64,000 bases of DNA from Minisyncoccia bacterium (GTDB taxonomy: Bacteria; Patescibacteriota; Minisyncoccia; Phycocordibacterales; UBA9973). The stretch is from positions 3,944 through 67,943 of the forward strand of contig JBBRTD010000003.1 in NCBI GenBank assembly GCA_038244685.1, in the 5' to 3' direction. Positions 1 through 49,555 of the stretch are shown here, piece after piece. The notes under the pieces are model-generated. The model saw nothing but the letters and a program-made list of their open reading frames with translations, searched no databases and was not told the origin of the DNA. A program made the position numbers and the translations under genes. Every line of letters starts with the position of its first letter. The stretch's first letter is position 1.

Positions 1-1
1 A

Positions 2-685
2 GATCCACTATTTTCAGATTTACTAAAAGACGACAAAGTTTTTGATGATATTTTTGATGAGTCAATAATTAAAATATTTAAACCAGGAATGGTGCTTGAG
101 GGTGGCTCAATTGATACAAATGGAAATGGAACTATTCTTACTACAGAACAGTGTCTTCTTAATCCAAATAGAAATAGAGAGCTTAACAAGGAGCAAATTG
201 AAATAAATTTAAAAAATTATTTGGGTTTAGATAATATAATTTGGCTTAAGGAAGGTATTGTGAACGATCACACAGATGGACATATAGATGAGATAGCTAG
301 ATTTGTTAGTTCTAGTGTAATTGTTTGCGCATATGAGGATGATAAAAAAGATCCAAATTATTCTATTCTCGATAATAATTTTAAAGTTTTAGAAAATGCA
401 TTAAATAAAGATGGCAGTAAATTTAATATTATTAAACTTCCTATGCCGCACATGGATTATGACAATGGAGAAAAGGCTCCCGTTTCATATACAAATTTTT
501 ATATAGGTAATTCTGTCGTTTTAATGTCTATATTTAATGATTCAAACGATAAAAAAGCTATGGATATAATTCAATCATTATTTCAAAATCATAAAGTAAT
601 TGGAATTGATTGTTCAAAAATAATTTATGGAGGAGGTGCTATTCATTGCATAACAATGCAAGAAATAGACGATGAATCAAATTAA
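2..685 (+). CDS. aguA: agmatine deiminase (porphyranase-type amidinotransferase fold), 5'-truncated by window edge
   Basis: Reading frame is open from the window edge. C-terminal GGGAIHCITMQ motif is typical of agmatine/peptidylarginine deiminase family. Confidence 0.65.
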   Translation, partial: DPLFSDLLKDDKVFDDIFDESIIKIFKPGMVLEGGSIDTNGNGTILTTEQCLLNPNRNRELNKEQIEINLKNYLGLDNIIWLKEGIVNDHTDGHIDEIARFVSSSVIVCAYEDDKKDPNYSILDNNFKVLENALNKDGSKFNIIKLPMPHMDYDNGEKAPVSYTNFYIGNSVVLMSIFNDSNDKKAMDIIQSLFQNHKVIGIDCSKIIYGGGAIHCITMQEIDDESN

Positions 686-741
686 ATAAAAGTAACTATA
701 TATTTTACAATTAATTATTTAGTGGTATTATTATTTTATAT

Positions 742-1797
742 ATGAAAAATATTTCAGAGGATAAGCCTATTTTTATTAAGAGTGATAAATTAGTGAAAGA
801 ATTCCTTAAAAAAAATCCACGTATTGTTTATGTGGATGCGTTTGATAGCCAGCTTGGAGAATTATTTTTTATTAAAAACCATAATTTCATCGGGGAGAAT
901 AAAATTAAAGTATACGAAGGAGAATCTTTTCTTAAGTTTGTTAAAAAATATGAAAAGAAGTATACGCATGTTTACTTTTCTTGGAACAATACCTTAGTTA
1001 AAACAATAACTAAAAATGATTATTTAGTTCTTAAAACAAACCGTAATCAGGATTTAATAACCAAAGAAGAACAGGAAAAATTATCCAACTTAAAAATTGG
1101 AGTTTTTGGTATGAGCGTTGGAAGTAATATTGCCATTGTTCTTACCCAGGCTGGAATATCAAACACAATTACAATCGCTGACTTTGATAATCTAGAGACA
1201 ACAAATTTAAATAGAATACTTGGTGGAGTTCATCAGATCGGGCTTAACAAAACCATTGTCGCTTCTCGTCGTATTTATGAGGACAATCCTTTTGCTAAGG
1301 TTAATTTAATGTCAAAGGGCGTTAATGCTAAAAATCTTGAGATATTGTTCAAAAATAAAAAATTAGACTATATAATAGAGGAAATTGATGACTTTTTAAT
1401 GAAAATAGAAATCCGTGTTCTAGCAAGGAAATATAAAATACCCGTGATAATGATTACAGATAATGGAGATGGTATTGTATTGCATATAGAACGTTATGAT
1501 TTAGGTTATAATAAAATTTTTGATAAAGATTTATCTTACTGGCAAGAGTTAAAAGATAAGAAGTTAAATCGTTCAGATATGGGTCAGATCATAATGAATG
1601 ATATCGTTGGAGGAATAGATAAGGTTGATCCTAAAATGTTTTCTTCTGTTAAAAGAGTAATCAATAAAGAACTTGTATCGTGGCCACAGTTAGGAAGTGC
1701 AGCAATTCTAGGTGGAGTTGTCGCTACGTATGCGGTTAAAGAAATTCTTAATAGTTCAAAATTATACATAAGTAAAAATTTTAACCTTTCTATATGA
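742..1797 (+). CDS. ThiF/MoeB/E1-like adenylyltransferase with ~110-aa N-terminal extra domain
   Basis: Rossmann motif GVFGMSVGSNIAIVLTQAGISNTITIADFDNLETTNLNRI matches the E1/ThiF nucleotide-binding fold. No CxxC. TGA stop coupled to the next ATG. Confidence 0.6.
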   Translation: MKNISEDKPIFIKSDKLVKEFLKKNPRIVYVDAFDSQLGELFFIKNHNFIGENKIKVYEGESFLKFVKKYEKKYTHVYFSWNNTLVKTITKNDYLVLKTNRNQDLITKEEQEKLSNLKIGVFGMSVGSNIAIVLTQAGISNTITIADFDNLETTNLNRILGGVHQIGLNKTIVASRRIYEDNPFAKVNLMSKGVNAKNLEILFKNKKLDYIIEEIDDFLMKIEIRVLARKYKIPVIMITDNGDGIVLHIERYDLGYNKIFDKDLSYWQELKDKKLNRSDMGQIIMNDIVGGIDKVDPKMFSSVKRVINKELVSWPQLGSAAILGGVVATYAVKEILNSSKLYISKNFNLSI

Positions 1798-2876
1798 AAA
1801 AACAAAAGATAAGTATTAAATTAGATAAAAAAATATTTAATTTAATGCCTGAATTCGACAATCATTTACTTGTCTTTCATCTTCAGGATGATGAATCTAA
1901 ACTAGATAGTTATGTTGCTATACATAGAATAAACGGCTCACTGCCTTCTTTTGGTGCTACAAGACTTCTAGATTATTCTTCAAACGAGGAAGCGATTAGA
2001 GATGCATTAAAATTATCTAAATTAATGTCATACAAAAGTGCCATGGCGGGTCTTCCTTATGGTGGTGCCAAGGCTGTAATTATTAGACCAAAGGGTGATT
2101 TTTCTAGAGAAAAATTACTCGAATCATATGCAAGAGGTTTAAATGAATTAAAAGGTAAGTTTATTACAGGTACAGATGTAGGTTTAACTGTTTCAGATTT
2201 GGTTCATATGAAGCAATATACAAAATATTTGGTTGGGTATTTAGCTAATCCAGAGAAGGCGACAGCCTTAGGAATTTCCAAATCATTAGATATAGCCCTA
2301 GACTATGTATATAAAGATACTGAATATTCTAGACATTCATTTTCAATACAAGGAGTAGGGAAAGTCGGATTTGAACTTCTTAAAATTCTTATTGATGGAG
2401 GAGCAAGAGATATTTATGTTGCAGATATTGATAAAAAGAAAATTAAAGAAATAGTTAAAGAATATCCTTTTATTAAGGTGGTAAATACTAATATAATTCA
2501 TAAGCAAGAAGTAGATGTCTATTGTCCTTGTGCTCTCTCTGGTGCATTAAATACTAAGACAATTAAAGAATTGAAATGCAAGATAGTGGTTGGGTCAGCT
2601 AATAATCAGCTAGAGTGCGCTTCTTCTTGTGAAGATTTGCACAAAAGAGGTATTGTCTATTGTCCAGACTATATAGCAAATTCTGGAGGATTAATTTCGA
2701 TTATTAATGAGTATAGATATGGTAAATTAAAAAATATTCAATTAACTAAAAATATTAAAAATATTGCAATTATTCTAAAAAAAGTTTTATTGGAAAGTAA
2801 AAAGAAAATGGTATCTCCGTTTGTAATATCTGAGAGCATGGGGTTGTCTATTATTAAGAAGAATTCTTCGAAATAA
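1794..2876 (+). CDS. Glu/Leu/Phe/Val dehydrogenase family protein (Leu/Phe dehydrogenase-like)
   Basis: PYGGAKAVI catalytic Lys motif and GVGKVGFELLKILIDGGARDIYVADID NAD-binding fold. Length 360 aa. Confidence 0.65.
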   Translation: MKKQKISIKLDKKIFNLMPEFDNHLLVFHLQDDESKLDSYVAIHRINGSLPSFGATRLLDYSSNEEAIRDALKLSKLMSYKSAMAGLPYGGAKAVIIRPKGDFSREKLLESYARGLNELKGKFITGTDVGLTVSDLVHMKQYTKYLVGYLANPEKATALGISKSLDIALDYVYKDTEYSRHSFSIQGVGKVGFELLKILIDGGARDIYVADIDKKKIKEIVKEYPFIKVVNTNIIHKQEVDVYCPCALSGALNTKTIKELKCKIVVGSANNQLECASSCEDLHKRGIVYCPDYIANSGGLISIINEYRYGKLKNIQLTKNIKNIAIILKKVLLESKKKMVSPFVISESMGLSIIKKNSSK

Positions 2877-2881
2877 AAATT

Positions 2882-4408
2882 ATGAATCCATACATACAAA
2901 AGGAACTTAAAGATAGAAACATTTTTTTAAATGAACTTTGTAGTAATGATTCATCTCATTGGGAAAAAAGAGGCGAAAATATGGCATTTAAATTGTTTAA
3001 GGAAATGTCAAAAAGGGTACCTGCTTATAAAAAATTTCTTAAAGAAAATAAAATAAATCCTGATAATATAAAAAGTTTTAAAGATACTTTGATTATTCCT
3101 TCAATTGATAAAGAAAATTATTTAAGAAAATATGAACTAAGAGAAATGTGCTGGGATGGTATTTTTGATAAAAATTCGTGGGTAATATCCTCAACATCTG
3201 GATCAACCGGCGAGCCTTTTTACTTTCCTAGGAATGATGAGCAGGATTTGCTTTATTCGCTTACCGCCGAACTATATCTTATTACAAATTTTAATATAAA
3301 TAAAAAATCAACACTATATATAGATGCTTTTCCAATGGGGCCATGGATAGGTGGACTTTTCACTTATCAGGCTGTTAAACACATAGCCCAAAGAGGAAAA
3401 TATAATATAAGTATCATTACAACAAGTATTGATAAAAACGAGATAATAAAAGCAGTTAAGAAATTTGGTAAAATGTTTGACCAAATAATAATTGGAAGCT
3501 ATGGCCCTTTTTTAAAGGATACACTTGAGGATGGTATAAACCAAAATGTTAATTGGAAGGATTATGATATTAAGTTTATTTTCTCAGCAGAAGGTTTTTC
3601 TGAAAAATTTAGGGATTATGTATTAGAAACAACTGGACATCCTGGCTGTTTTGAAAGAACTTTGAATCATTATGGGACGGTAGATTTAGGGACTATGGCC
3701 TACGAGACTCCACTCGCTATTAAAATTCGTCGTACTTTGTTGGAAAATGCTGATGCATACCAAGATATATTTGGTTTAAATAAAAAAATTCCAACATTAT
3801 GCCAGTACATACCAGAACATTTTTATTTTCATAAATCGAACAATGGTAGCGGCCTCTTATGCTCTTCTTTTAGTGGTTTACCTCTTTTTAAGTATGATCT
3901 CAAGGATAATGGTGGAATTATTCAGTATGATGAAGCAATAAAACTTTTAGATAAAAATAAATTAGACTCAAAAATGATATTAAAAGATGCTCATATTCCA
4001 AAAAAGTCTATTTGGAAATTACCCTTTGTTTATATATTTGAAAGAAATGATTTCTCTGTCAGTTTTTATGCTTTTCAGATATATCCAGATACCATAAGAA
4101 AAGCTATTCAAATAGATGAAATGGAACATAAAATAACCGGTAAGTTTACAATGCAAGTTGATTATGATAATAAGAATAATCAAAAATTATTAATACACAT
4201 TGAATTATCTGCCAATGAGCCATCATCAGATATATTAAAAAACATATTAATTAAATTAATAACGAAGTTACTTGTTTTAGAAAACTCAGAATATGCTAAG
4301 ACATACAAAGAAAAAGGTGATCTTATTCATCCTGAAATTATATTTCACAGATATGAAGACGCTCAGTATTTTAAGGCGGGTATAAAACAAAAATGGGTAA
4401 AAAAATAA
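2882..4408 (+). CDS. PaaK/CapK/F390-synthetase-like adenylate-forming ligase
   Basis: STSGSTGEPFYFP AMP-binding motif. Overall PaaK-like architecture, but longer than PaaK (508 aa). Confidence 0.55.
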   Translation: MNPYIQKELKDRNIFLNELCSNDSSHWEKRGENMAFKLFKEMSKRVPAYKKFLKENKINPDNIKSFKDTLIIPSIDKENYLRKYELREMCWDGIFDKNSWVISSTSGSTGEPFYFPRNDEQDLLYSLTAELYLITNFNINKKSTLYIDAFPMGPWIGGLFTYQAVKHIAQRGKYNISIITTSIDKNEIIKAVKKFGKMFDQIIIGSYGPFLKDTLEDGINQNVNWKDYDIKFIFSAEGFSEKFRDYVLETTGHPGCFERTLNHYGTVDLGTMAYETPLAIKIRRTLLENADAYQDIFGLNKKIPTLCQYIPEHFYFHKSNNGSGLLCSSFSGLPLFKYDLKDNGGIIQYDEAIKLLDKNKLDSKMILKDAHIPKKSIWKLPFVYIFERNDFSVSFYAFQIYPDTIRKAIQIDEMEHKITGKFTMQVDYDNKNNQKLLIHIELSANEPSSDILKNILIKLITKLLVLENSEYAKTYKEKGDLIHPEIIFHRYEDAQYFKAGIKQKWVKK

Positions 4409-4411
4409 ATT

Positions 4412-5485
4412 ATGAACATTGATTTAATAAAAAAAATAATAGAATATGGAGTGCAAGCTCCTTCTGGGGATAATTCTCAACCTTGGAAATTTGTAATTAC
4501 TGATAGAAATGAAATTATGCTTTACAATTTATCCGACAAAGATAATCCTATTTTAAATGTACACGAAGGAGGTTCTTTGATATCACATGGAGCTGTAATT
4601 CAAAATATTAAAATCGCTGCTGATAACTTTGGTTACAAAACTATTGTTTCTTACCTGCCAAATATTTTAGATAAAGACCTAATTGCTATTATTTCTTTTT
4701 TGGATAATAAAGAAAAAAATAAAGCATATGAATTGAGTTTATTTAACTCTATACATAGACGTTGTACAAATAGGAATCATTATGAAAAAGATTTAGATAT
4801 TAATGCCATAACCGAGTTACAAAAAACAGTCGAATCTTTTAATTTTAAGGTTATTATATTTGATAATCAAAAAGATAAAGATTTAGTCTCTTCTTGTATT
4901 TGCATGAGCGAAGAAATTATTCTTCAAACAAAAGAGTTGCATGAATTACTTTTTGCTGATGTTGCTTGGACCAAAAAAGAGGAATCAATAAAACGACATG
5001 GATTATTTGTTAAAACTTTAGAATTTAATCCTGTGCAACTCTTTGTTTTTTGGTTGTGCCGTAAGTGGAAGAATATATCTTTTTTAAATCAAAAAATAGG
5101 ATTTGCTCATATTGTAGGTAATCAAAACGCCGATATTTATAGATCAAGCGGCATACTCGGGCTGATAATTATTCCTAGTACTGAAAGGATAAATTATCTT
5201 AGGGCAGGGGAATTATTACAGCAAATATGGCTTAAATCAACTCAATTAAACTTAAGTTTTCAGCCTATTACAGGTCTATTTTTCCTAAATGAAAGAATTA
5301 AAGTATTTGGGGATAGTCCTATCTCTAAAGAAAATAGCAAAAAAATATCCGACGCATATAATACTTTAAAGAATTTAAGCGCGATAAATGATAGTGATAT
5401 CATTTTAACTTCATTTAGAATAGGAAAATCCAAAGAATCTAGTGGTAGGTCTTCTAGACTTAAGCCTAATATTATATTAAATTAA
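4412..5485 (+). CDS. Two-domain nitroreductase-family flavoprotein (SagB-like size)
   Basis: N-terminal APSGDNSQPWKF nitroreductase signature. 357 aa suggests a tandem/extended nitroreductase fold. Confidence 0.6.
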   Translation: MNIDLIKKIIEYGVQAPSGDNSQPWKFVITDRNEIMLYNLSDKDNPILNVHEGGSLISHGAVIQNIKIAADNFGYKTIVSYLPNILDKDLIAIISFLDNKEKNKAYELSLFNSIHRRCTNRNHYEKDLDINAITELQKTVESFNFKVIIFDNQKDKDLVSSCICMSEEIILQTKELHELLFADVAWTKKEESIKRHGLFVKTLEFNPVQLFVFWLCRKWKNISFLNQKIGFAHIVGNQNADIYRSSGILGLIIIPSTERINYLRAGELLQQIWLKSTQLNLSFQPITGLFFLNERIKVFGDSPISKENSKKISDAYNTLKNLSAINDSDIILTSFRIGKSKESSGRSSRLKPNIILN

Positions 5486-5489
5486 TTAA

Positions 5490-7133
5490 ATGATTAATTT
5501 CGATATCAAACTAATTGCTGTAGGTTTATCAATACTAGCAAGCATTATCATATCTTTTATTGTTTTATTAAATAATAAAAATTCCGATACAAATAAAACC
5601 TTTTTTGCATTTACATTAGCAACTATATTTTGGGGTATTATTAATTATTTAAATTCACAAATAAACTTTCCAAATGAGAAAATTGCATTGTTATTTCTGC
5701 GCTTAAATTTATTCTTCGGCCTATGGCAGTCCTTTTTCCTTTATAGATTTTTTGTTATTTTTCCAAAAATTAAAGTAGAGAAAAAATGGTGGAATTCATT
5801 TGTAGTTTTACCTCTTATGTTTTTTACTTCTATACTTATTTTTACTCCACTTGTATTTTCAAAAGTTATTAGTTTTTCTACTGATGGGCACATAATAAGT
5901 GTTTCGAATGGACCTAGTATTCTTATTTTTGGAATATTAGCAACTGGATTGGTAATTGCTGGGATAATTATTATTTTCAATAAATTTGTTAAATATACTG
6001 GAGATGAAAAAATTCAAACTAGGCTTATTTTGAATGGTTCATTTTTGATGTTTTTGCTTATAATAATATTTAATTTCATACTACCAACATTCTTTGATAA
6101 TTCTACTTATGTTTCGGTTGCTGCAGTGTTTGCAATACCGTTTCTTATCTTAACAGGCTATTCAATTTTAAAGTATCACTTATTCAGTGTTAAGATTATT
6201 GCGACTGAGCTAATTACATTCATATTATGGATCTTTATATTTATAAGAGCATTAATGGCTAATTCTTTACAAGAGAAAGTTGTTAATGGTATTTTATTTG
6301 TTATTGTTGTAATCGTTGGTTTATTGCTTATTAAAAGCGTTCGCAAGGAAGTTGAACAACGTGAAAGGTTAGAAGTCCTTAGGTTAAAACTAGAGGAAAC
6401 TAATACAAGTTTAGAAAATGCCAATGTGAAGTTGAAAAGTTTGGATAAGCTTAAGACAGAGTTCGTTTCTCTTGCGTCACATCAACTACGTAGCCCTTTA
6501 ACTGCTATTAAAGGCTATGCTTCGATGCTGTCTGAAGGAGATTACGGTGAGGTTAGTAAGGAAGCTAAGGATGCTGTTATGCGTATTTATCAATCATCAA
6601 TAAATCTAACTACAGTTGTTGAAGATTTGTTAAATGTAACCAAAATAGAATCTGGTGGCATGCAGTATACCATGGCTTCTTTCGACTTATCAAAAGTTGC
6701 AGAGGATGAGGCAAAAGATTTATCTATTACAGCAGAGAAAAGAGGATTAAAACTCAATTATAATTCTGATGGTGAGAATCTATGTATGGTAAACGGCGAT
6801 AAGGAAAAAATAAGACAAGTTATTATTAATTTTATAGATAATTCAATTAAATATACAAAAGAAGGAAGTATTGATGTCTCTGTTAAAAATAACAATAATA
6901 AAGTTATTTTTTGTGTTAAGGATACAGGTATGGGTATGACACAAGAAATAAAAGAAGGTCTATTCCATAAATTTGCTCGCGGTGACGGAGCTCGTATGAA
7001 TACTACAGGCTCAGGGCTTGGCTTATATTTAGCCAAAGAGATTGCACTGGCGCATAAAGGGCGTGTCTGGGTGGAATCTGAAGGAATAGGGAAAGGTTCA
7101 TCTTTCTATTTAGAATTAGATACCGTTAAATAA
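5490..7133 (+). CDS. Sensor histidine kinase with large polytopic N-terminal membrane domain
   Basis: About 8 predicted TM helices. HisKA H-box FVSLASHQLRSPLTAI. HATPase_c G-boxes DTGMGM and GSGLGL. Confidence 0.8.
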   Translation: MINFDIKLIAVGLSILASIIISFIVLLNNKNSDTNKTFFAFTLATIFWGIINYLNSQINFPNEKIALLFLRLNLFFGLWQSFFLYRFFVIFPKIKVEKKWWNSFVVLPLMFFTSILIFTPLVFSKVISFSTDGHIISVSNGPSILIFGILATGLVIAGIIIIFNKFVKYTGDEKIQTRLILNGSFLMFLLIIIFNFILPTFFDNSTYVSVAAVFAIPFLILTGYSILKYHLFSVKIIATELITFILWIFIFIRALMANSLQEKVVNGILFVIVVIVGLLLIKSVRKEVEQRERLEVLRLKLEETNTSLENANVKLKSLDKLKTEFVSLASHQLRSPLTAIKGYASMLSEGDYGEVSKEAKDAVMRIYQSSINLTTVVEDLLNVTKIESGGMQYTMASFDLSKVAEDEAKDLSITAEKRGLKLNYNSDGENLCMVNGDKEKIRQVIINFIDNSIKYTKEGSIDVSVKNNNNKVIFCVKDTGMGMTQEIKEGLFHKFARGDGARMNTTGSGLGLYLAKEIALAHKGRVWVESEGIGKGSSFYLELDTVK

Positions 7134-7145
7134 TAGTAATAAATT

Positions 7146-7174
7146 AAAAACACTATATTATATATAGTGTTTTT
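7146..7174. terminator. Bidirectional rho-independent terminator between histidine kinase (+) and cysS (-)
   Basis: Perfect 13-bp inverted repeat aaaaacactatat/atatagtgttttt with 3-nt loop, flanked by A and T runs. Confidence 0.65.
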
Positions 7175-7180
7175 AATTTA

Positions 7181-8563
7181 TTAAATTTTTGAAATTTCAC
7201 TAACGCCATCCATATCTTTTATTTCGAAACCTAAAGATTTAATTTGATGTCTTAATTCATCGCTTTTTGCCCAGTCTTTATTACTTCTCGCAATTGTCCT
7301 TTCTTGGACTAATTTTTTTATGTCTTCTGGTATTATGTTATCACTTTTTGCTCCTAAATTTAAACCAAGAACTTTGTCAAAATCAAGAATTGTTGCAAGT
7401 TTATCTTCGTTTGATATTCCATATTTAAAAACTTCTGCGACAGTAGATAGTGCTTTAGGCATATTTAAATCATCGTTGATATTTGAAATGAATCTTTCTT
7501 TAAGTTCAGCATTAACGGAGCCTATTTTTTCTCCTAATATTTTAATTTTATGAATTAAATTATTGTAACCATTAATTGCAGAAGTTAATACGTCATTATT
7601 CCATTCCATTTGCTTTCTGTAATGAACTCCGAAGGTTGCAAAACGATAAACCAAAGGATTAATATCTTTATCAATGAATTCACTTTTGATAGTTAAGAAA
7701 TTTCCAGTACTTTTCGCCATCTTTTCGCCATCTTTTAAGTTTAAAAATTCTCCATGTACCCAATAATTAACCCAAGGTTTTACTCCAGTAGCTGCTTCTG
7801 TTTGAGCAAGTTCATTTGTGTGATGTAAATCGATAAAATCAACACCTCCACAATGGATATCAAAATGAGTTCCAAGATATTTGACGCTCATGGCAGAACA
7901 CTCAATATGCCACCCAGGAAACCCTACACCCCAAGGGCTCTCCCATTCCATTTGTCTTTTTATGTTCTTTGGAGAAAATTTCCATAATGCGAAATCTGTA
8001 GCATTTTTTTTCTCGTCATTAATTTCAACTCTTGAACCTTCCTTAAGTGCTGATAAATTTTGATGTGAAAGTTTTGTATAGTCTGCTACTTTTGATGTAT
8101 CAAAATATATTCCATCGCTTGTGATATAAGTAAAACCTTTTTCTTCAAGTTGCATAATCATCTCTATCTGTTCATTAATGTTATCAGTTGCCTTGCAGAA
8201 TGTATTCGGAAAGATAATATTAAGATTCTTTAAATCCTCTTTAAATTTTATTGTATAGAATTCGGCAATTTCAAAAGCTGTCTTATTTTCTTTTTTTGAT
8301 TCTTTTTCAATTTTATCCTCGCCCATATCTCGATCTCCAGTTAAATGGCCTACATCTGTAATATTCATAATGTGATTAACAAGATAATTATTATAGCTTA
8401 AGACACGCTTTAGAATATCTTCAAATATATATGTGCGCATATTTCCTATATGGGCATAATTATAGACGGTTGGGCCACAGGTATATAAGCCTACATTGCT
8501 TTCTATGATAGGCTTGAATTCTTCTTTTTCCTTATTTAATGAATTATATATTTTTAGAGCCAT
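7181..8563 (-). CDS. cysS: Cysteinyl-tRNA synthetase
   Basis: HIGN (YNYAHIGNMRTY) and KMSKS (KMAKSTGN) class I motifs. CysS-specific domain order. Confidence 0.9.
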   Translation of the reverse strand: MALKIYNSLNKEKEEFKPIIESNVGLYTCGPTVYNYAHIGNMRTYIFEDILKRVLSYNNYLVNHIMNITDVGHLTGDRDMGEDKIEKESKKENKTAFEIAEFYTIKFKEDLKNLNIIFPNTFCKATDNINEQIEMIMQLEEKGFTYITSDGIYFDTSKVADYTKLSHQNLSALKEGSRVEINDEKKNATDFALWKFSPKNIKRQMEWESPWGVGFPGWHIECSAMSVKYLGTHFDIHCGGVDFIDLHHTNELAQTEAATGVKPWVNYWVHGEFLNLKDGEKMAKSTGNFLTIKSEFIDKDINPLVYRFATFGVHYRKQMEWNNDVLTSAINGYNNLIHKIKILGEKIGSVNAELKERFISNINDDLNMPKALSTVAEVFKYGISNEDKLATILDFDKVLGLNLGAKSDNIIPEDIKKLVQERTIARSNKDWAKSDELRHQIKSLGFEIKDMDGVSEISKI

Positions 8564-22887: not shown

Positions 22888-22969
22888 TGCCCGAGGTGGG
22901 AATCGAACCCACATCCCTTACGAGACACGATTTTAAGTCGTGCGCGTATACCAGTTCCGCCACTCGGGC
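22888..22969 (-). tRNA. tRNA-Leu (anticodon UAA), type II with long variable arm, CCA not encoded
   Basis: Minus-strand cloverleaf GCCCGAGUGGCGGAA... Anticodon loop CUUAAAA. T-arm GUGGGUUCGAUUCCCAC. Acceptor GCCCGAG/CUCGGGC. Confidence 0.8.
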
Positions 22970-36536: not shown

Positions 36537-39500
36537 ATGTCCTCTGACGGAACTAAATTAGTTGCTGCGGTTTTTGGTGGCGATATTTATACCTCGACAG
36601 ATAGTGGAGCGACCTGGACAGATAGAACTGGTGCCGGTTTAAGAAATTGGTATTCCGTTTCTTCTTCATCAGATGGAACTATATTAATGGCAGCTAATGA
36701 TGATGGATGGTGGGCTTCATATATTTACACATCAGAAGATAGTGGTGCCACTTGGACACAGCAAACTGGGACGGGTGCTAATCATTTTTGGAGAGCTACA
36801 GCAATATCAGCAGATGGATCCAAAATGGTAGCTGTTGCAAATAATGATAATATTTACATATCAAATAATACAGGGTCAACTTGGATAAAAACTGACTCAA
36901 GTCTTATAACTTGGACATCAGTTACTATGTCTTCTGATGGAACTAAACTAGCTGCAGTTGCTGGTGCTCCGTATCAATATGGTAATCCTAGTTACTATGT
37001 CTATACATCTATTGATGGTGGAACAACTTGGCTAGAACAGACTGGATCTACAAAAACATCATCTAGATTTTCTATTGCTTCTTCTGCTGATGGAACTAAA
37101 TTAGCTACTGCTGATTATGGTATTTATTCGTCGGGTGATTATATAAACAAATCTAACGATAGTGGAACTACTTGGTCAACACAAACAACTGCAGGACAAA
37201 GATTATGGAAATCTATTGCTACATCTGCCGATGGATCAAAATTAGCTGCTGTTGCTTATGGTGGATATATTTATACTTACACACCTACCTTAACTTCAAC
37301 AATAACAACAGACGTTAATTCATCTCTAACTCAAACATCTACTATACTAAATGGAACTATTACAAATATTGGAGAAGAAAATCCAAGTATTAGAGGTTTC
37401 GAGTATGGATTAACTACAGGATACGGAACAACCACAGTAGATAATGGTTCCTTTGGTGTTGGTTCTTTCAGTAAAGATATTACATCGCTATCTTGTGGAA
37501 CTTTGTATCATTTCCGTGCTTATGCGACTAATAGTGGAGGTAAGGCAATAGGAGGTGATCAAACTTTTACAACAAATCCATGTACTTACCCATTACTAAG
37601 TACTAATTCTGCTTCTTCTATATCTTTAACAGGAGCTACTTTAAATGGAAATATTTCAAATATTGGACAAGATAATTCTACAGTTAGAGGATTTCAATAT
37701 GGATTAACAATAAGTTACGGAACAACGACAACAGAGAATGGATCTTTTGCTACAGGAGCTTTTACTTCTGATATTGTTGGTCTAAATTGTGGAAATACTT
37801 ACCACTTCCGTTCATATGCCACTAACTCAATAGGTACTGGTTATGGAGATGATTTAACTTTCGCAGCAAGTAATTGTTCATCTGCCGGTTGGGTTCAGAG
37901 AACAAGTGCTGGGATAAATCCTTGGATGTCAGTTACTACATCAGCAGACGGAACCAAATTAGCTGCGACTTCAAATAATAATGGTAATGGATATATTTAT
38001 ACTTCAACAGATAGTGGTGTCACTTGGACACAAAGAACAGGTGCAGGTTTTAAATTTTGGACATCAATTGCTTCATCTGCAGATGGAACTAAACTAGCTG
38101 CTGCTGTTTACAATGATTATATTTATACATCAACAGATAGTGGGGCCACTTGGACACAGCAAACTGCTCCAGGAATTAAAAATTGGATGAAAATTATTTC
38201 ATCAGCAGATGGAATGATTCTAGGTGCGTGGAATACAAGTGACGGAAGATTTAGTACATCAATAAATGGTGGAGTTGCATGGACAATACAATACGGGGCA
38301 AGTTCAGTTGGAATAGGAGCAAACGTAACAATGACTCCTACTGGAGATAAAATGGCAGGATCTTATGATGGTAATATTTCTTATATTTCTACTTCAAGTA
38401 ATTCTGGTGTTACCTGGACAAAACAATTAAATTCCGACGAACGTAGTTGGAGTGGAATAACAATTTCTTCTAATGGAACTAAAATTGCAGTAACTTCAGG
38501 TGGAATGTCCAATCTTGGTTATATTTTTACATCGACAGACAGTGGAGTAACCTGGACACAGAGAACAAGCGCGGGGAATTTAAAATGGATGGATATTGCT
38601 TCATCCTCTGATGGAAATACATTGATTGCAACAACATTTAATGGTTACATGTATTTATCTAGAGATTCTGGAAATACTTGGATAGAACAAACATCTACAG
38701 GCATAAAATACTGGAAGGATATTTATTCTTCATCAGATGGAAGTAAATTTATAACAATTGGATGTGATACAAATTGCTATATTTACACTTACGAACAAGC
38801 CCACCTTTCAACATTAGATACAAACCCTGCAACCTCCATTCTTTCAAACGCAGCTACTTTAAATGGTTATATTTCTAATACAGGAGGAGAAGTTTCAAGT
38901 GTGAGAGGATTTGAATATGGTATAGATACAAGTTATGGAAAAAATACAATTGAAAATGGATCATTTGGAATTGGTGCGTTTACAAAAAATGTTTCAGCTT
39001 TAATTTGTGAGACCACATACCATTACCGTTCATATACCACAAATGGTGGCGGAAATTCATATGGGGCAGATCAAACATTTACTACTGGTACATGTTCTGG
39101 TATTCCCGTTATGTTAACAAGCGCCGCTTCAAATATATCTCCAACCTCAGTTACCTTAAATGGTGATATTACTGATATCGGATTAAGTAGTCCTACAATA
39201 AGAGGGTTTGAATATGGACTAACAACAAACTATAGTGCATCAAACATAGGTAATGGTACATTTGGAGTTGGTGCATTTTCAAAAAATGTCTCAGCTTTAA
39301 TTTGTGGTTCTACTTATCACTATCGTTCATTTGCTACAAATACCACAGGAACAGGTTATGGACAAGACTTAACATTCAATACAAGTCCTTGTATTTATCC
39401 TTCACTATCTACCAATACTGCAACATTAGTGACTTCTATTTCTGCTACTTTAAATGGATCTATTTCAAATACAGGAGGAGTAAATCCTACAGTTAGAGGT

Positions 39501-42500
39501 TTCGAATATGGAACAACAATAAGTTATGGAACAACTGTAAACGAAAGTGGTACATTTGGAATTGGATCATATACTAAAAATACTACAGGACTTACTTGTG
39601 CAACTCTATACCACTATCGTGCTTATGCAACGAATAGTAACGGAACAGGGTCGGGGAATGATCAAACATTTACCACAGGAACATGTTCTGGAATTTCAAC
39701 ATTAACAACAGAATCAGCAAATTTAATTTCATTAAACTCTGCAACTCTAAATGGAACCATTACAAATACAAGCGGTGAGAATCCAACAGTTCGCGGTTTT
39801 GAATATGGAACAACCATAAGTTACGGAACATCAACAATTGAAAGTGGTTCATTTGGAATTGGAGCTTATATAAAAAACGTTAATACTTTAACTTGTGGAA
39901 CTCTATACCACTATCGTTCATATGCCACAAATAGTGGAGGAAGCGGTTATGGTAACGATCAGACATTTACCACAGGAACTTGCTCTGGTATTTCAACGTT
40001 AACAACAGAAGCAGTATCTACTCTTACTTCAACTTCTGCTACATTAAATGGAACTGTCACTAATACAAATGGTGCTAATCCTACAATTCGAGGTTTCGAA
40101 TATGGAACAACAATAAGTTATGGAACAACTGTAAATGAAAGTGGAACATTTGGAATTAGTAGTTACTCAAAAGATATTTCTTCTCTAACTTGTGCAACCC
40201 TATACCACTTCCGTTCATATGCCACAAATAGCGTTGGAACAGGTTATGGTAATGATCAAACATTTACCACAAACAGTTGTACATACCCTGACTTAACAAC
40301 TACATATGCAACATCAATTGTTAAAACTGCAGCCACACTAAATGGATCTATTTCAAATACAGGAGGAGTAAATCCTACAATTAGAGGATTCGAATATGGG
40401 TTAGATACTAGTTATGGAACTCAAGTAAACGAAAGTGGTTCATTTGGAATTGGATCATACTCTAAAAATATTTCTTCTTTAACCTGTGGAACTCTATACC
40501 ACTATCGTTCATATGCCACAAATGCCAATGGTACAGGAAATGGTAATGATCAAACATTTACTACTGGTACTTGTTCTGGAACAATAGGATGGACGGCTCA
40601 ATATAATATAGGAGCAAAAACGTGGTGGGCAATTGCCTCTTCCACTGATGGAACAAAATTAGCAGCAACAGCCATAAGTGATTATATTTATACTTCTACA
40701 GATGGTGGTTTAAACTGGACGGCACAAATAAATTCAGGAATAAATGGTTGGTATTCAATAGCATCATCTTCTGATGGTAATAAATTAGTTGCAATTGGCT
40801 CTGACTTCAGTGGTTGGGGATATATTTATACATCAACAGACAGCGGAGTGACCTGGACAAAAAGAGTGAGCGCTGGTAATCGTACATGGGGTACTGTGGT
40901 CTCATCTTCAGATGGAACTAAACTAGCAGCAGCTGTTAATAATAGCGATGTATATACTTCTACAGATAGCGGAGCCACATGGACAGAAAGAACAGGAACA
41001 GGTTCACACTACTGGGGAACTGTTGCCATGACTTCATCTGCCGATGGAATGAAATTAGCAATAGTTTATTACAACGGTTTAATTCAAACATCAGTAGACG
41101 GTGGAGCAACTTGGACAGCCCAAGCAAATTCTGGAATGCTTGGATGGTCAACTATAGTTTCATCTGCTGATGGAAATAAATTAGCTGCAGCAACTTCCAA
41201 TAGCTATATTTATACATCTATTGACAGTGGAGTAAATTGGACCGCTCAAACTAATTCAGGAGCAACTCACTACTTTAGAAATATGTTTTCATCTCCAGAT
41301 GGTTCAATATTATTTGCCTTAGATAATAGTTCTACAAATAGCTATATTTATAAATCCATAGACAGCGGAGTGACTTGGACAACTGATGCTATTGCTGGGT
41401 CTAAAAGATGGCAAACATTATCCTCATCCTCAGATGGATCTAAATTAGCAGTTGCAAATTCGAGTGATTATTATATTTATACATATGGAGATATAAATAT
41501 GCCTAAGCCGACAGTAGATACAGCTGTTATTACAGGAGTAAGTACGGTAACACTTAATGGATTTGTTGATACAGATAACACAACTCGAGGATTCCAATAT
41601 GGACTAACAACAAGTTATGGAAATACAACAACAGAAAATGGAACATTTAATTATGGACCAATGACTGCAAATATTTCAGGAATTACGCCTGATGTTACTT
41701 ACCATTTCCGTTCGTATGCGACAAATTTATCTGGAACTGCGTATAGTGAAGACAATATATTTGTTCTTAAATACCAAAACTGGACACCAAATACTATTGT
41801 TGGCTCTCGTTATTGGAGTGCAGTAGCTTCATCATCTGATGGAAATAAATTAGTTGCAGTGGTTCAAGGTGGATATATTTATACATCAACTGATGGCGGA
41901 ACAACTTGGACAGAAAGAAATGGCGCAGGTTCCAGACAGTGGAAAGCAGTTGCCTCATCAGCTGATGGAACAAAACTTGTAGTGGCCAATGGAAGCAATG
42001 GCTTTATATATACATCGACAGATAGCGGAGTTAATTGGACACTAAGAACTTCTTCAGGATTATACTGGTGGATGTCACTTACATCATCATCTGATGGAAC
42101 AAAATTAGCCGCGACGACAGGGAATGGTACGGGATATATTTTCACATCAGCAGATAGTGGAGCAACTTGGGTACAACGTTCAGTTTCCGGTTCCCATAGT
42201 TTTAATTCAATTATTTCTTCAGCAGATGGAACTAAATTAGCAGCAACTGCTTACAGTGATTATATTTATACATCAACTGACAGTGGAGCAACCTGGGTGC
42301 AGAGAACAAATTCAGGTTCTCATAGTTTTTATTCAATTGCATCATCTGCCGATGGAACGAAATTAGCAGCAGCTAGTCATGATTTAAGTGGTTATATTTA
42401 TACATCAACCGACAGTGGAGCAACATGGGTAAAAAGAACAAGTGCAGGTATACGCACTTGGACATTAATTACTTCATCTTCCGATGGAACAAAATTAGCT

Positions 42501-49483: not shown

Positions 49484-49555
49484 GCGTGTGTAGTTCAGTG
49501 GTAGAACGCTGTCCTGATAAGACAGAGGTCCTTGGTCCGATTCCAAGCACACGCA
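49484..49555 (+). tRNA. tRNA-Ile (anticodon GAU), T-loop UCCGAUU (C55 instead of U)
   Basis: Acceptor GCGUGUG/CACACGC. D-arm GUUC-AGUGGUA-GAAC. Anticodon stem CUGUC/GACAG with loop CUGAUAA. T-stem CUUGG/CCAAG. Confidence 0.75.

What the first reader, a model, noticed from the sequence alone, without database searches (positions are those of the whole stretch)
742..5485. Four-gene cassette: E1/ThiF-like + Leu/Phe-dehydrogenase-like + PaaK-like adenylating enzyme + tandem nitroreductase
These are tightly coupled genes (ATGA overlap, 5- and 3-bp gaps) in a genome that otherwise lacks biosynthetic capacity. An E1-like activator with an extra N-domain, an NAD(P)-dependent amino-acid dehydrogenase, an adenylate-forming ligase of the PaaK/CapK/F390-synthetase group, and a 357-aa SagB-sized FMN nitroreductase are each enzymes used to activate and oxidatively tailor amino-acid or peptide substrates. 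E1-like plus nitroreductase pairs occur in azoline-forming RiPP systems; PaaK-like ligases occur in capsule/cofactor tailoring. No YcaO or precursor peptide is evident, so this is not a textbook TOMM. It may be a novel small-molecule or modified-cofactor pathway. The agmatine deiminase upstream and orphan histidine kinase downstream may or may not belong.
Basis: inference. Interest (0 to 1): 0.65.

Follow-up and report, generated by a model that had tools for sequence, protein, structure and literature searches.

The report
Patescibacterial oxazolone-type operon with sensor kinase
Four tightly packed enzyme genes plus the sensor kinase behind them form one operon, conserved across the ultrasmall Patescibacteria, that most likely makes an oxazolone-type small molecule by a previously undescribed, probably CoA-independent route and is tied to a membrane sensor.

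Summary
The four genes exist exactly as described. The functional unit is larger: a five-gene operon (742-7133) that includes the downstream 7TM histidine kinase. The agmatine deiminase does not belong.

The ThiF-like protein and the "nitroreductase" are the two halves of an Rv1355c/TrzS-type oxazolone synthetase. [quoted passage not shown] Here the halves are split, with the dehydrogenase and the ligase between them.

In 80 related genomic loci, all Patescibacteria-like, ThiF neighbours the ligase in 79 and FDO in about 63. The kinase is the next gene downstream in 71 of 76 loci. The Phe/Leu-type dehydrogenase (37 loci) and a class-I aminotransferase (33 loci) are mutually exclusive at the same position. 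Natural fusions (DH-LIG, DH-LIG-ThiF, LIG-ThiF, ThiF-FDO) tie all four enzymes into one pathway.

The N-acyl amino acid synthase that marks every described oxazolone cluster is absent. A PaaK-fold adenylating enzyme, a fold that includes CoA-independent amide ligases, takes its place.

This is not a TOMM/RiPP system, a defence system, or unrelated housekeeping genes. I class it as a new variant of a known kind. The chemistry and the kinase's role are inferred, not shown.

The parts
704..731 (+). Promoter-like site (TTTACA, 16-nt spacer, TATTAT, with TG before the -10) in the 56-bp gap upstream of the first gene
   Evidence: 10 of 12 matches. This is weak evidence. The region has as many consensus matches as shuffled sequence, so only the site's position is suggestive.
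742..1797 (+). ThiF-like ATP-dependent cyclase: the N-terminal half of an Rv1355c/TrzS-type oxazolone synthetase, free-standing here
   Evidence: NF005901 6e-66, 223 bits, residues 15-338 on model positions 23-323 of 722. It is 30% identical over its full length, N-terminal extension included, to a Rhodococcus 'Rv1355c family protein'. The Gly-rich loop, ADFDxLxxxNLNR and E213/E214/D216 are invariant. ThiF, MoeB and TcdA equivalog cutoffs are not reached.
1794..2876 (+). Leu/Phe/Trp-type NAD(P) amino-acid dehydrogenase with a PheDH-like pocket
   Evidence: Pfam ELFV_dehydrog_N and ELFV_dehydrog match. PDB LeuDH scores 2e-59 and TrpDH 2e-54. Catalytic K81 and K93 are invariant. G126 (LeuDH A113 position) is present in 37 of 37 family members and L300 (V291 position) in 30 of 37. 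Relatives are fused as DH-LIG and DH-LIG-ThiF.
2882..4408 (+). PaaK-fold adenylate-forming ligase of a Patescibacteria-specific family, proposed to be a CoA-independent amide (N-acyl amino acid) ligase
   Evidence: No Pfam hit. AF2 pLDDT 90. Foldseek gives PaaK1 2y27 at E=1e-21 and TM 0.63/0.74, and the amide/ester ligase ClxA at E=9e-15. Invariant residues are S106, G107, S108, G110 (TSGSTG loop), E237, D342 and K502. The family has 477 clusters at 50% identity with E<=1e-30. ThiF is its neighbour in 79 of 80 loci.
4412..5485 (+). Acg/TrzS-type flavin-dependent oxidase (monomeric double nitroreductase fold): the C-terminal half of the oxazolone synthetase, proposed C-alpha/C-beta desaturase
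   Evidence: NF005901 1.7e-46 on model positions 375-714 of 722, PRK14851 7e-52, Acg family 1.6e-34, and no SagB model. The APSGDNSQPW motif and R117 are invariant with the Rv1355c-family reference. Fused ThiF~FDO proteins occur in at least 8 related loci.
5490..7133 (+). Membrane sensor histidine kinase (HisKA_7TM, HisKA, HATPase_c), the last gene of the operon
   Evidence: Pfam. It starts 4 bp after the FDO gene. A kinase is the next downstream gene on the same strand in 71 of 76 loci where downstream sequence exists, with a gap of <=100 bp in 69. The 7TM region is conserved as a family, with mean 29% identity. No receiver domain is found in the 64-kb window.

Best explanation
The region 742-7133 is one operon. 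It is the Patescibacterial version of the oxazolone (azlactone) / N-acyl-dehydroamino-acid pathway, built with a different first half and transcribed together with a 7TM sensor kinase. Proposed mechanism, step by step. (1) The Phe/Leu-type dehydrogenase interconverts a bulky, probably aromatic, amino acid and its 2-oxo acid to supply a building block. In other lineages a class-I aminotransferase does this job. This step is inferred. (2) The PaaK-fold ligase adenylates a carboxylic acid, plausibly that 2-oxo or aryl acid, and couples it directly to the amino group of an amino acid. The product is an N-acyl amino acid made with ATP and without acyl-CoA. [quoted passage not shown] This step is inferred. 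(3) The ThiF-like protein adenylates the alpha-carboxylate of the N-acyl amino acid, and the amide oxygen closes the 5(4H)-oxazolone ring. This is inferred by homology to TrzS, TyzB and OxzB. (4) The flavin-dependent oxidase desaturates C-alpha/C-beta to give the conjugated oxazolone. This is inferred by homology to the TrzS FDO domain and TyzC. (5) The co-transcribed 7TM histidine kinase links the pathway to signalling. In about half of relatives a single-domain receiver protein sits next to the cluster as well. Most attractively, the kinase senses the hydrophobic, hydrolytically labile product. This step is speculative. What is shown: the gene order, the co-conservation, the fusions, the family assignments and the conserved catalytic motifs. 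What is not shown: any substrate, any product, or any kinase ligand.
For: The split-gene relationship is clear: ThiF maps to NF005901 positions 23-323 and FDO to positions 375-714 of 722. A fused Patescibacterial orthologue, L036 (743 aa), scores 534 bits against the curated cutoff of 476 for the Rv1355c (TrzS) family. TrzS, TyzB/TyzC and OxzB are biochemically shown to cyclise (ATP) and desaturate (O2) N-acyl aromatic amino acids to oxazolones (PMC12856293; PMC10404671; bioRxiv 10.1101/2020.06.11.147165). The adenylation Asp (TrzS D217A is inactive) is conserved as D216, and the FDO flavin-site motif and R117 are conserved. Co-conservation across 80 loci: LIG 80, ThiF 79, HK 72-73, FDO 57-66, DH 37-38. 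DH (37) and aminotransferase (33) are never found together, and one or the other is present in 70 of 80 loci. This holds within both gene-order classes, and L005, whose ThiF is 58% identical to the window's, has the aminotransferase where the window has the DH. Fusions: DH-LIG (P0267), DH-LIG-ThiF (P0343), LIG-ThiF (P0241, P0095/L014), ThiF-LIG (P0347) and ThiF-FDO in 8 loci. The ligase has the PaaK fold, and PaaK-fold ClxA/NatL2 carry out ATP-dependent, CoA-independent amide or ester coupling (PMC12519233). The DH pocket carries the PheDH-type Gly/Leu pair. The kinase is operonic in 71 of 76 loci, and a receiver protein directly flanks 35 of 80 clusters.
Against: There are no biochemical data for any member of this cluster. 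The window's split halves sum to only ~382 bits against the 476-bit cutoff, and most fused Patescibacterial forms also fall below it at 381-452 bits. The N-acyl amino acid synthase, the hallmark of all characterised clusters, is absent (PMC12479983), so the ThiF substrate is inferred. The ligase could be a true CoA ligase, because fold alone does not discriminate. About 17 of 80 loci lack an FDO, so desaturation is not universal. Described FDOs use O2, while many Patescibacteria live in anoxic habitats. Much of the aminotransferase class comes from one lineage (Saccharimonadia) and is divergently transcribed, so part of the DH/AT exclusivity may reflect phylogeny. The window has no receiver domain. 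The direction of the DH reaction is unknown.
Confidence: 0.55

Rival explanations
1. Same oxazolone chemistry, but the PaaK-like enzyme is an ordinary acyl/aryl-CoA ligase. It activates the DH- or AT-derived acid as a CoA thioester, and an unlinked N-acyltransferase elsewhere in the genome makes the N-acyl amino acid.
For: The best structural matches are true CoA ligases, PaaK1 and BT_0428. JGI annotates the family as phenylacetate-CoA ligase.
Against: No acyltransferase is conserved in any of the 80 neighbourhoods. Direct LIG-ThiF and DH-LIG-ThiF fusions argue that the ligase product passes straight to ThiF. The PaaK equivalog score is 17 bits against a cutoff of 646. From general knowledge, not tested here, Patescibacteria typically lack fatty-acid and often CoA biosynthesis.
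Confidence: 0.15
2. The enzymes make the small molecule as proposed, but the kinase does not sense it. The kinase and receiver protein respond to an external cue (host contact, stress) and control enzyme activity or another output. Alternatively the product is an antimicrobial or a reactive acyl donor and not a signal.
For: Oxazolone loci in Actinobacteria also sit next to signalling genes (c-di-GMP enzymes) without evidence that those sense the product (PMC12856293; a GGDEF gene lies next to the Rhodococcus homologue). N-acyl dehydrotyrosines have antimicrobial activity. In 18 of 80 loci an alpha/beta-hydrolase is present, sometimes fused to FDO or ThiF, which suggests ring-opening or acyl transfer.
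Against: Being the last gene of the biosynthetic operon in 71 of 76 loci across deep lineages is the arrangement seen in synthase-receptor pairs. The receiver proteins have no DNA-binding output domain, so simple transcriptional control of the operon is unlikely.
Confidence: 0.3
3. The ThiF-like enzyme acts on a macromolecule: an E1-like protein or peptide C-terminus (ThiS/MoaD/ubiquitin-like, MccB/PaaA-type RiPP) or tRNA (TcdA-type ct6A). The ligase and oxidase would then tailor that substrate.
For: The best solved-structure sequence hits are TcdA (6e-08) and MccB (1e-06). The N-terminal extension could in principle be a peptide-binding domain.
Against: Those hits are weak (35 bits) beside the 223 bits to the Rv1355c family, and the N-terminal extension is shared with that small-molecule enzyme family. 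There is no YcaO, no SagB-type model hit, no small ORF in the gaps and no conserved small ORF. No Cys is invariant in ThiF. PADLOC finds only the generic E1 core at <=42 bits and no partner proteins.
Confidence: 0.05
4. The genes are unrelated housekeeping genes that are merely adjacent: MoeB/ThiF for cofactor sulfur transfer, LeuDH for amino-acid catabolism, PaaK for phenylacetate use, and a nitroreductase.
For: Public annotations call the ThiF protein 'molybdopterin/thiamine biosynthesis adenylyltransferase' and the ligase 'phenylacetate-CoA ligase'.
Against: All housekeeping equivalog cutoffs are missed by wide margins. The genes are co-conserved and fused to each other. The operon has gene junctions of 5 bp or less.
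Confidence: 0.02

Closest known systems
TrzS (Rv1355c) / OxzB oxazolone synthetases and the split TyzB + TyzC pair (M. tuberculosis, Pseudoalteromonas rubra)
   Same: A ThiF-like domain carrying the same N-terminal extension, plus an Acg-type flavin-dependent oxidase. The domain order is the same when fused. The adenylation Asp and the flavin-site motif are conserved. A fused Patescibacterial orthologue passes the curated family cutoff. A split form has precedent in TyzB/TyzC.
   Different: There is no N-acyl amino acid synthase partner. In its place are an amino-acid dehydrogenase (or aminotransferase) and a PaaK-fold ligase, here inserted between the two halves. A 7TM histidine kinase sits in the operon. 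Identity to actinobacterial members is ~30%. The host phylum (Patescibacteria) is not among those described.
N-acyl dehydrotyrosine clusters (stieleriacines, thalassotalic and kyonggic acids): NasY + ThiF + nitroreductase
   Same: A ThiF plus nitroreductase pair in a compact operon. The products may be the ring-opened N-acyl dehydroamino acids and not the oxazolones (PMC12479983). The alpha/beta-hydrolase found in 18 of 80 Patescibacterial loci could play that ring-opening role.
   Different: The hallmark NAS enzyme is absent here. The window itself has no methyltransferase or hydrolase.
PaaK-fold ATP-dependent amide/ester ligases ClxA and NatL2 (benzoxazole pathways), and PaaK phenylacetate-CoA ligase
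   Same: The same fold and adenylation motifs. ClxA and NatL2 show that this fold can couple an acyl-adenylate directly to an amine or phenol without CoA.
   Different: Identity is only 12-15%. The protein is ~80 aa longer than PaaK. It belongs to a separate, Patescibacteria-restricted family with no Pfam model. Its substrates are unknown.
Aminotransferase or dehydrogenase plus adenylating-enzyme logic of arylpyruvate-derived metabolites (ScyB in scytonemin; TdiD/TdiA, AtrD/AtrA, RalD/RalA). From my own knowledge.
   Same: A deaminating enzyme that makes an arylpyruvate is paired with an enzyme that adenylates a carboxylate. The DH's best NCBIfam hit is ScyB Trp dehydrogenase (249 bits).
   Different: Those systems use NRPS-like A-T-TE enzymes or a ThDP enzyme and dimerise two keto acids. 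Here the downstream enzymes are oxazolone-synthetase halves.
Autoinducer synthase and membrane sensor kinase gene pairs (CqsA/CqsS, LuxM/LuxN). From my own knowledge.
   Same: A small-molecule biosynthetic gene or genes lie adjacent to a polytopic membrane histidine kinase.
   Different: There is no homology in either component, and no evidence here that the kinase binds the product. This is an analogy of arrangement only.

Membership tests
Rv1355c/TrzS-OxzB oxazolone synthetase (NCBIfam NF005901) | ThiF-like cyclase domain with the family's N-terminal extension | tested here: met
   Window 742-1797 matches model positions 23-323 of 722 at 6e-66. It is 30% identical over its full length to a Rhodococcus family member.
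Rv1355c/TrzS-OxzB oxazolone synthetase (NCBIfam NF005901) | Acg-type flavin-dependent oxidase domain as the C-terminal half | tested here: met
   Window 4412-5485 matches model positions 375-714 of 722 at 1.7e-46. The motifs are conserved.
Rv1355c/TrzS-OxzB oxazolone synthetase (NCBIfam NF005901) | Whole-protein score at or above the curated cutoff (476 bits), as one fused polypeptide | tested here: not met
   The window proteins are separate genes scoring 223 and 159 bits. The fused orthologue L036 passes at 534 bits. L046, L017 and L006 do not, at 452, 396 and 381 bits.
Rv1355c/TrzS-OxzB oxazolone synthetase (NCBIfam NF005901) | Conserved adenylation-motif Asp (TrzS D217; D217A is inactive) | tested here: met
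   D216 in EEIDD is invariant across the window, Patescibacterial and Rhodococcus sequences. The residue's role comes from PMC12856293.
Rv1355c/TrzS-OxzB oxazolone synthetase (NCBIfam NF005901) | FDO residues Arg540 and Gln651 of TrzS(Msmeg) | tested here: inconclusive
   R117 and the APSxxNxQPW motif are invariant.
Rv1355c/TrzS-OxzB oxazolone synthetase (NCBIfam NF005901) | Adjacent N-acyl amino acid synthase (OxzA/TyzA/TrzA/NasY) | tested here: not met
   No such gene is present in the window operon or conserved in the 80 loci. A putative TrzA-like neighbour from Rhodococcus gives no tblastn hit, though that query is itself unvalidated.
Rv1355c/TrzS-OxzB oxazolone synthetase (NCBIfam NF005901) | ATP-dependent cyclisation and O2-dependent desaturation of an N-acyl amino acid | not testable with these tools
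   Requires enzymology.
PaaK phenylacetate-CoA ligase (TIGR02155) | Score at or above the curated cutoff (646 bits), and a paa catabolic gene context | tested here: not met
   17 bits. The neighbours are ThiF, DH, FDO and HK, not paa genes.
PaaK phenylacetate-CoA ligase (TIGR02155) | PaaK-type ANL fold with adenylation motifs | tested here: met
   Foldseek E=1e-21 and TM 0.63/0.74 to 2y27. The TSGSTG loop, E237, D342 and K502 are invariant.
PaaK phenylacetate-CoA ligase (TIGR02155) | CoA thioester as product | not testable with these tools
   The fold is shared with the CoA-independent ligases ClxA and NatL2.
TOMM / azoline-forming RiPP (E1-like + YcaO + SagB dehydrogenase + precursor) | YcaO cyclodehydratase | tested here: not met
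   None is present in the operon or among the conserved neighbours.
TOMM / azoline-forming RiPP (E1-like + YcaO + SagB dehydrogenase + precursor) | Precursor peptide ORF | tested here: not met
   All ORFs of 20 aa or more in 1-7200 overlap the large genes. The only real gap (686-741) has no ORF.
TOMM / azoline-forming RiPP (E1-like + YcaO + SagB dehydrogenase + precursor) | SagB-type dehydrogenase | tested here: not met
   NCBIfam hits are the Rv1355c, PRK14851/2 and Acg families only.
MoeB/ThiF sulfur-carrier adenylyltransferases | Equivalog score, a ThiS/MoaD partner, and a conserved Cys | tested here: not met
   Scores are 33-70 bits against cutoffs of 152-647. There is no small carrier ORF and no invariant Cys.
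Leu/Phe/Trp amino-acid dehydrogenases (ELFV) | Both ELFV domains and the two catalytic lysines | tested here: met
   (K81, K93). Substrate-specific equivalog ScyB is not reached: 249 bits against a cutoff of 600.
Anti-phage E1/E2 systems (CBASS Cap2, Bil, 6A-MBL) | An E1-E2 fusion or partner proteins of the defence system | tested here: not met
   PADLOC matches only the adenylation core, at <=42 bits. The other four proteins have no hits.

The most novel reading that the evidence does not exclude
Patescibacteria carry a phylum-wide, self-contained chemical signalling module. An operon makes a labile oxazolone-type (AHL-like) molecule from scavenged amino acids by two successive ATP-dependent carboxylate activations, without CoA. 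The operon also encodes the molecule's cognate 7TM histidine-kinase receptor, and in many lineages a CheY-like single-domain response regulator lies next to it. This would be the first autoinducer-like system of the candidate phyla radiation, and the first physiological role and receptor assigned to bacterial oxazolones.
Probability: 0.25. Interest if true: 0.85.

Novelty: new variant of a known kind. Interest (0 to 1): 0.66.

Why it matters
Patescibacteria make up a large share of bacterial diversity. They have very small genomes and almost no recognised biosynthetic or signalling chemistry. A multi-enzyme small-molecule operon retained across Saccharimonadia, Paceibacteria, Microgenomatia, Doudnabacteria and Magasanikbacteria, and always joined to a membrane sensor kinase, is therefore likely to matter for their episymbiotic lifestyle.

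The physiological role of bacterial oxazolones is an acknowledged open question in M. tuberculosis and in proteobacteria. This cluster offers a directly testable candidate receptor.

In enzymology, it would add a second, ATP-only entry route to N-acyl amino acids and oxazolones. It would also define a new family of PaaK-fold ligases (477 or more clusters at 50% identity, with no Pfam model).

In practice, the ThiF and ligase genes are currently mis-annotated as MoeB/ThiF and phenylacetate-CoA ligase in public genomes.

Tried and rejected
- A single-sequence AlphaFold model of the ligase was unusable (pLDDT 47). I redid it with a 75-sequence alignment.
- Direct sequence search of the ligase against the PDB gave only a marginal PaaK hit (E=0.05).
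- The afdb50 fold library was unavailable.
- I looked for a response regulator, aminotransferase or alpha/beta-hydrolase anywhere in the 64-kb window, by tblastn and by an HMM built from 50 cluster-associated receivers. None was found.
- I looked for precursor-peptide ORFs. None was found.
- Rfam found only two tRNAs, far from the locus.
- I tested the agmatine deiminase as a member. It was rejected at 0 of 80 loci.
- I considered a second FDO copy in loci with a ~300-aa gene after FDO. That gene turned out to be an alpha/beta-hydrolase.
- I tried to map TrzS R540 and Q651. This was not possible without the M. smegmatis sequence.
- The ThiF homologue search returned only Patescibacterial ThiF proteins with generic names.
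- Literature searches for any prior description of this cluster in Patescibacteria, or of HisKA_7TM ligands, found nothing relevant.
- The defence-system reading was rejected.
- The Streptomyces/Kitasatospora ThiF hits turned out to be a different ThiF + KAS III context.

Full report
**Observation**

All are on the + strand.

| Gene | Coordinates | Length |
|---|---|---|
| ThiF-like | 742-1797 | 351 aa |
| Dehydrogenase (DH) | 1794-2876 | 360 aa |
| PaaK-like ligase (LIG) | 2882-4408 | 508 aa |
| Nitroreductase (FDO) | 4412-5485 | 357 aa |

The junctions are a 4-bp ATGA overlap, a 5-bp gap and a 3-bp gap. The next gene, a 547-aa histidine kinase (HK, 5490-7133), follows after only 4 bp. After it comes a convergent cysteinyl-tRNA synthetase-like gene on the other strand.

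The upstream agmatine deiminase ORF is open to the first base of the window, so the window edge cuts it. It is separated from the cassette by a 56-bp AT-rich gap. That gap holds a promoter-like site at 704-731 (weak evidence) and no ORF.

GC content is about 28-30%. The closest genome-level relative is a Candidatus Nomurabacteria MAG with the same gene order and the same downstream neighbours (L002). The window therefore comes from a Patescibacterium (CPR).

**Domain assignments**

- Pfam finds ThiF at residues 102-238, preceded by a ~100-aa extension. It also finds both ELFV dehydrogenase domains, a nitroreductase N-terminal motif, and HisKA_7TM + HisKA + HATPase_c for the kinase. It finds nothing for the 508-aa protein.
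- The informative result came from NCBIfam. The ThiF-like protein matches positions 23-323 of the 722-position 'Rv1355c family protein' model (6e-66, 223 bits). The nitroreductase matches positions 375-714 of the same model (1.7e-46, 159 bits), and also matches the Acg family.
- ThiF, MoeB, TcdA and PaaK equivalogs are missed by wide margins. No SagB model hits the nitroreductase.
- The two outer enzymes are therefore the two halves of one known bifunctional enzyme. Here they are split, with two other genes between them.

**What that enzyme does**

- Rv1355c is TrzS. [quoted passage not shown] It converts N-acyl-tryptophan into an N-acyl tryptazolone by ATP-dependent cyclisation followed by O2-dependent desaturation (PMC12856293).
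- The split pair TyzB/TyzC does the same chemistry for tyrazolones (PMC10404671). OxzB was the founding oxazolone synthetase (bioRxiv 10.1101/2020.06.11.147165).
- A 2025 review calls this the only ThiF-like enzyme known to act on a small molecule (PMC12596934).
[quoted passage not shown] This holds for the planctomycetal and proteobacterial N-acyl-dehydrotyrosine clusters too.

**Tests of the homology**

- I obtained a true 'Rv1355c family protein' from a Rhodococcus plasmid.
- The window ThiF aligns with its N-terminal half over the full length at 30% identity. The alignment covers the N-terminal extension, the Gly-rich loop, ADFDxLxxxNLNR, and the invariant E213/E214/D216. D216 corresponds to the Asp whose D217A substitution abolishes TrzS cyclase activity.
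- No cysteine is invariant in ThiF.
- The FDO shares APSGDNSQPW and an invariant Arg (R117) with the reference. I could not map the published R540 and Q651 numbering.
- Fused Patescibacterial ThiF~FDO proteins exist. One of them, L036 (743 aa), exceeds the curated family cutoff at 534 bits against 476. Three others fall short at 381-452 bits.

**The 508-aa protein**

- It has more than 1,700 word-indexed homologues. All that carry names come from Patescibacterial lineages.
- It has 477, 1054 and 1586 clusters at 50% identity at E<=1e-30, 1e-10 and 1e-3 respectively.
- A 75-sequence alignment gave an AlphaFold model with pLDDT 90 and pTM 0.89.
- Foldseek places it in the PaaK branch of adenylate-forming enzymes: PaaK1 at E=1e-21, TM 0.63/0.74, ~13% identity. 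ClxA and 2-hydroxyisobutyryl-CoA ligase follow.
- The nucleotide loop TSGSTG, E237, D342 and the C-terminal K502 are invariant.
- ClxA and NatL2 are PaaK-fold enzymes that couple an acyl-adenylate directly to an amine or phenol without CoA (PMC12519233). The fold therefore allows either a CoA ligase or an amide ligase.

**Co-conservation**

An alignment-guided scan of one genome per GTDB species returned 128 confirmed loci, of which 80 were fetched with flanks. The table combines tblastn with the window proteins and unbiased ORF clustering.

| Component | Loci (of 80) | Note |
|---|---|---|
| Ligase | 80 | the query |
| ThiF | 79 | the one exception is a 4.5-kb contig |
| FDO | 57-66 | range depends on the method |
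| Histidine kinase | 72-73 | |
| Dehydrogenase | 37-38 | |
| Agmatine deiminase | 0 | |

- The kinase is the next gene downstream on the same strand in 71 of 76 cases where sequence exists. The gap is <=100 bp in 69 of them. Its 7TM region is conserved at a mean of 29% identity, against 39% for the kinase core.
- Where the dehydrogenase is absent, a class I/II PLP aminotransferase occupies the neighbouring position. The counts are DH 37, aminotransferase 33, both 0, either 70 of 80.
- The exclusivity holds in both gene-order classes. It also holds within the window's own ThiF subfamily: L005, whose ThiF is 58% identical to the window's, has the aminotransferase directly upstream on the same strand.
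- Many aminotransferase-type loci are Saccharimonadia and are divergently transcribed, so phylogeny contributes to the pattern.
- Two unrelated enzymes that both interconvert amino acids and 2-oxo acids, alternating at one position, identify that reaction as a pathway step.

Accessory components in relatives, all absent from the window:

- A single-domain CheY-like receiver protein directly flanks 35 of 80 clusters.
- An alpha/beta-hydrolase is present in 18 of 80 loci, six times fused to FDO or ThiF.
- A FAD-dependent aromatic-hydroxylase-like monooxygenase is present in three loci.

The remaining neighbours (MurD, FolD, MurI, PGK, aminoacyl-tRNA synthetases) are lineage-specific housekeeping synteny.

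**Fusions**

| Fusion | Example |
|---|---|
| LIG-ThiF | P0095/L014 (889 aa), P0241 (863 aa) |
| ThiF-LIG | P0347 (880 aa) |
| DH-LIG | P0267 (847 aa) |
| DH-LIG-ThiF | P0343 (1242 aa; its ThiF part scores 293 bits to the Rv1355c family) |
| ThiF-FDO | eight loci |

Every one of the four window enzymes is thus fused to another one somewhere in the family. The domain orders fit a DH, LIG, ThiF, FDO assembly line. Some metagenomic fusions could be frameshift artefacts, but several independent architectures recur.

**The dehydrogenase**

- It is closest to the leucine, tryptophan and phenylalanine dehydrogenases (2e-59, 2e-54 and 1e-33).
- Both catalytic lysines are invariant.
- At the two pocket positions that, from my memory of the PheDH/LeuDH mutagenesis literature, discriminate aliphatic from aromatic substrates (LeuDH A113/V291 against PheDH Gly/Leu), the family has Gly in 37 of 37 and Leu in 30 of 37.
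- This points to a bulky, probably aromatic, substrate. All known natural oxazolones derive from Tyr, Phe or Trp.

**Mechanism proposed**

1. DH (or the aminotransferase in other lineages) supplies a 2-oxo acid or amino acid.
2. The PaaK-fold ligase adenylates a carboxylic acid and forms an amide with an amino acid. This replaces the acyl-CoA-dependent synthase.
3. ThiF adenylates the alpha-carboxylate, and the ring closes to a 5(4H)-oxazolone.
4. FDO desaturates the ring. Where present, the hydrolase may open or transfer the ring.

The co-transcribed 7TM kinase, with a receiver that has no DNA-binding domain, connects the pathway to signalling. Published work already speculates that oxazolones are labile, AHL-like signals. 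It also notes that Mtb trzAS sits beside c-di-GMP genes, and the Rhodococcus homologue sits beside a GGDEF gene. The arrangement here resembles synthase-receptor pairs such as CqsA/CqsS, which is an analogy from my own knowledge.

The homology, the co-conservation and the fusions are shown. Substrates, CoA independence, the product and the kinase ligand are inferred.

**Rivals**

- A true CoA ligase with an unlinked acyltransferase is possible, but the LIG-ThiF fusions and the absence of any conserved acyltransferase make it unlikely.
- A RiPP/TOMM, E1-conjugation or tRNA-modification reading is contradicted by three things: the missing YcaO, precursor and SagB; the much stronger match to the small-molecule enzyme family; and the lack of an invariant Cys.
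- PADLOC finds only the generic E1 core.
- Unrelated housekeeping genes are excluded by the cutoffs, the co-conservation and the fusions.
- Whether the kinase senses the product or merely regulates remains open.

**Caveats**

- 17 of 80 loci lack an FDO, so the invariant core is LIG-ThiF-HK.
- Most family scores are below the TrzS cutoff.
- Described FDOs need O2.
- Thirteen loci carry 'Gammaproteobacteria' or 'Polyangiaceae' labels. They share housekeeping synteny with named Patescibacteria loci, and one is a 938-kb chromosome. I read these labels as mis-assignments.

**Novelty**

Full-text searches found no paper linking oxazolones, this ligase family or this operon to Patescibacteria. Public annotations are generic or wrong. 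I class the finding as a new variant of a known kind. It uses known ThiF/FDO oxazolone chemistry, with a new ATP-dependent front end and a new, phylum-wide operonic link to a two-component sensor.

Noticed in passing
window 1-685: The agmatine deiminase gene (PAD_porph, profile positions 128-319 of 321) is open to the first base of the window, so the window edge truncates it. It is never found next to the cluster in relatives (0 of 80).
   Followed up: yes
window 36537-45047 and 45087-48146: Two very large adjacent ORFs (2836 aa and 1019 aa) on the + strand. I did not examine them. Giant surface proteins are common in Patescibacteria.
   Followed up: no
L082 6146-9030; L083 6167-9081: Kitasatospora and Streptomyces linear plasmids carry a ~620-aa 'ThiF family adenylyltransferase'. 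Its C-terminal part is 36-39% identical to the Patescibacterial ThiF. It is translationally coupled to a KAS III (ketoacyl-ACP synthase III) and has no FDO. This is a different and apparently undescribed ThiF context.
   Followed up: partly
L007, L009, L011, L015, L018, L021-L023, L025, L026, L036, L051, L066: GTDB-representative MAGs titled 'uncultured Gammaproteobacteria' or 'Polyangiaceae' carry this cluster. They share housekeeping synteny with named Patescibacteria loci, and one is a 938-kb chromosome. Their taxonomic labels look wrong.
   Followed up: partly
L039 2498-3727; also L054 and L078: A FAD_binding_3 aromatic-ring-hydroxylase-like monooxygenase is inserted between the aminotransferase and the ligase in three Saccharimonadales loci. 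It may be a tailoring enzyme, and it hints at an aromatic substrate.
   Followed up: partly
L006 10719-11633; L034 9533-11422; L042 8515-10479: An alpha/beta-hydrolase (Abhydrolase_1) is either free-standing after FDO or fused to FDO or to ThiF, in 18 of 80 loci. It may open the oxazolone ring or act as an acyl transferase. It is absent from the window.
   Followed up: partly
L036 and L042 (two HK genes in tandem after the cluster); L062, L043 and L068 (an extra HK upstream): Some loci have duplicated sensor kinases around the cluster. Long kinases (706-775 aa) carry an extra GAF-like domain between the 7TM region and HisKA. The window's kinase is the short form.
   Followed up: partly
L058 2716-4011 (cluster c14, ~431 aa): A conserved Saccharimonadales protein with no Pfam match and a CxxC-rich C-terminus lies between MurD and FolD in six loci. 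It is probably lineage synteny and not part of the cluster.
   Followed up: no
L081 2858-3940: The Rhodococcus plasmid Rv1355c-family gene sits beside a GGDEF diguanylate cyclase. This echoes the c-di-GMP genes that flank trzAS in M. tuberculosis, and it is another oxazolone locus next to signalling genes.
   Followed up: partly
window 22888-22969 (-) and 49484-49555 (+): Two tRNA genes. These are the only Rfam matches in the window.
   Followed up: no
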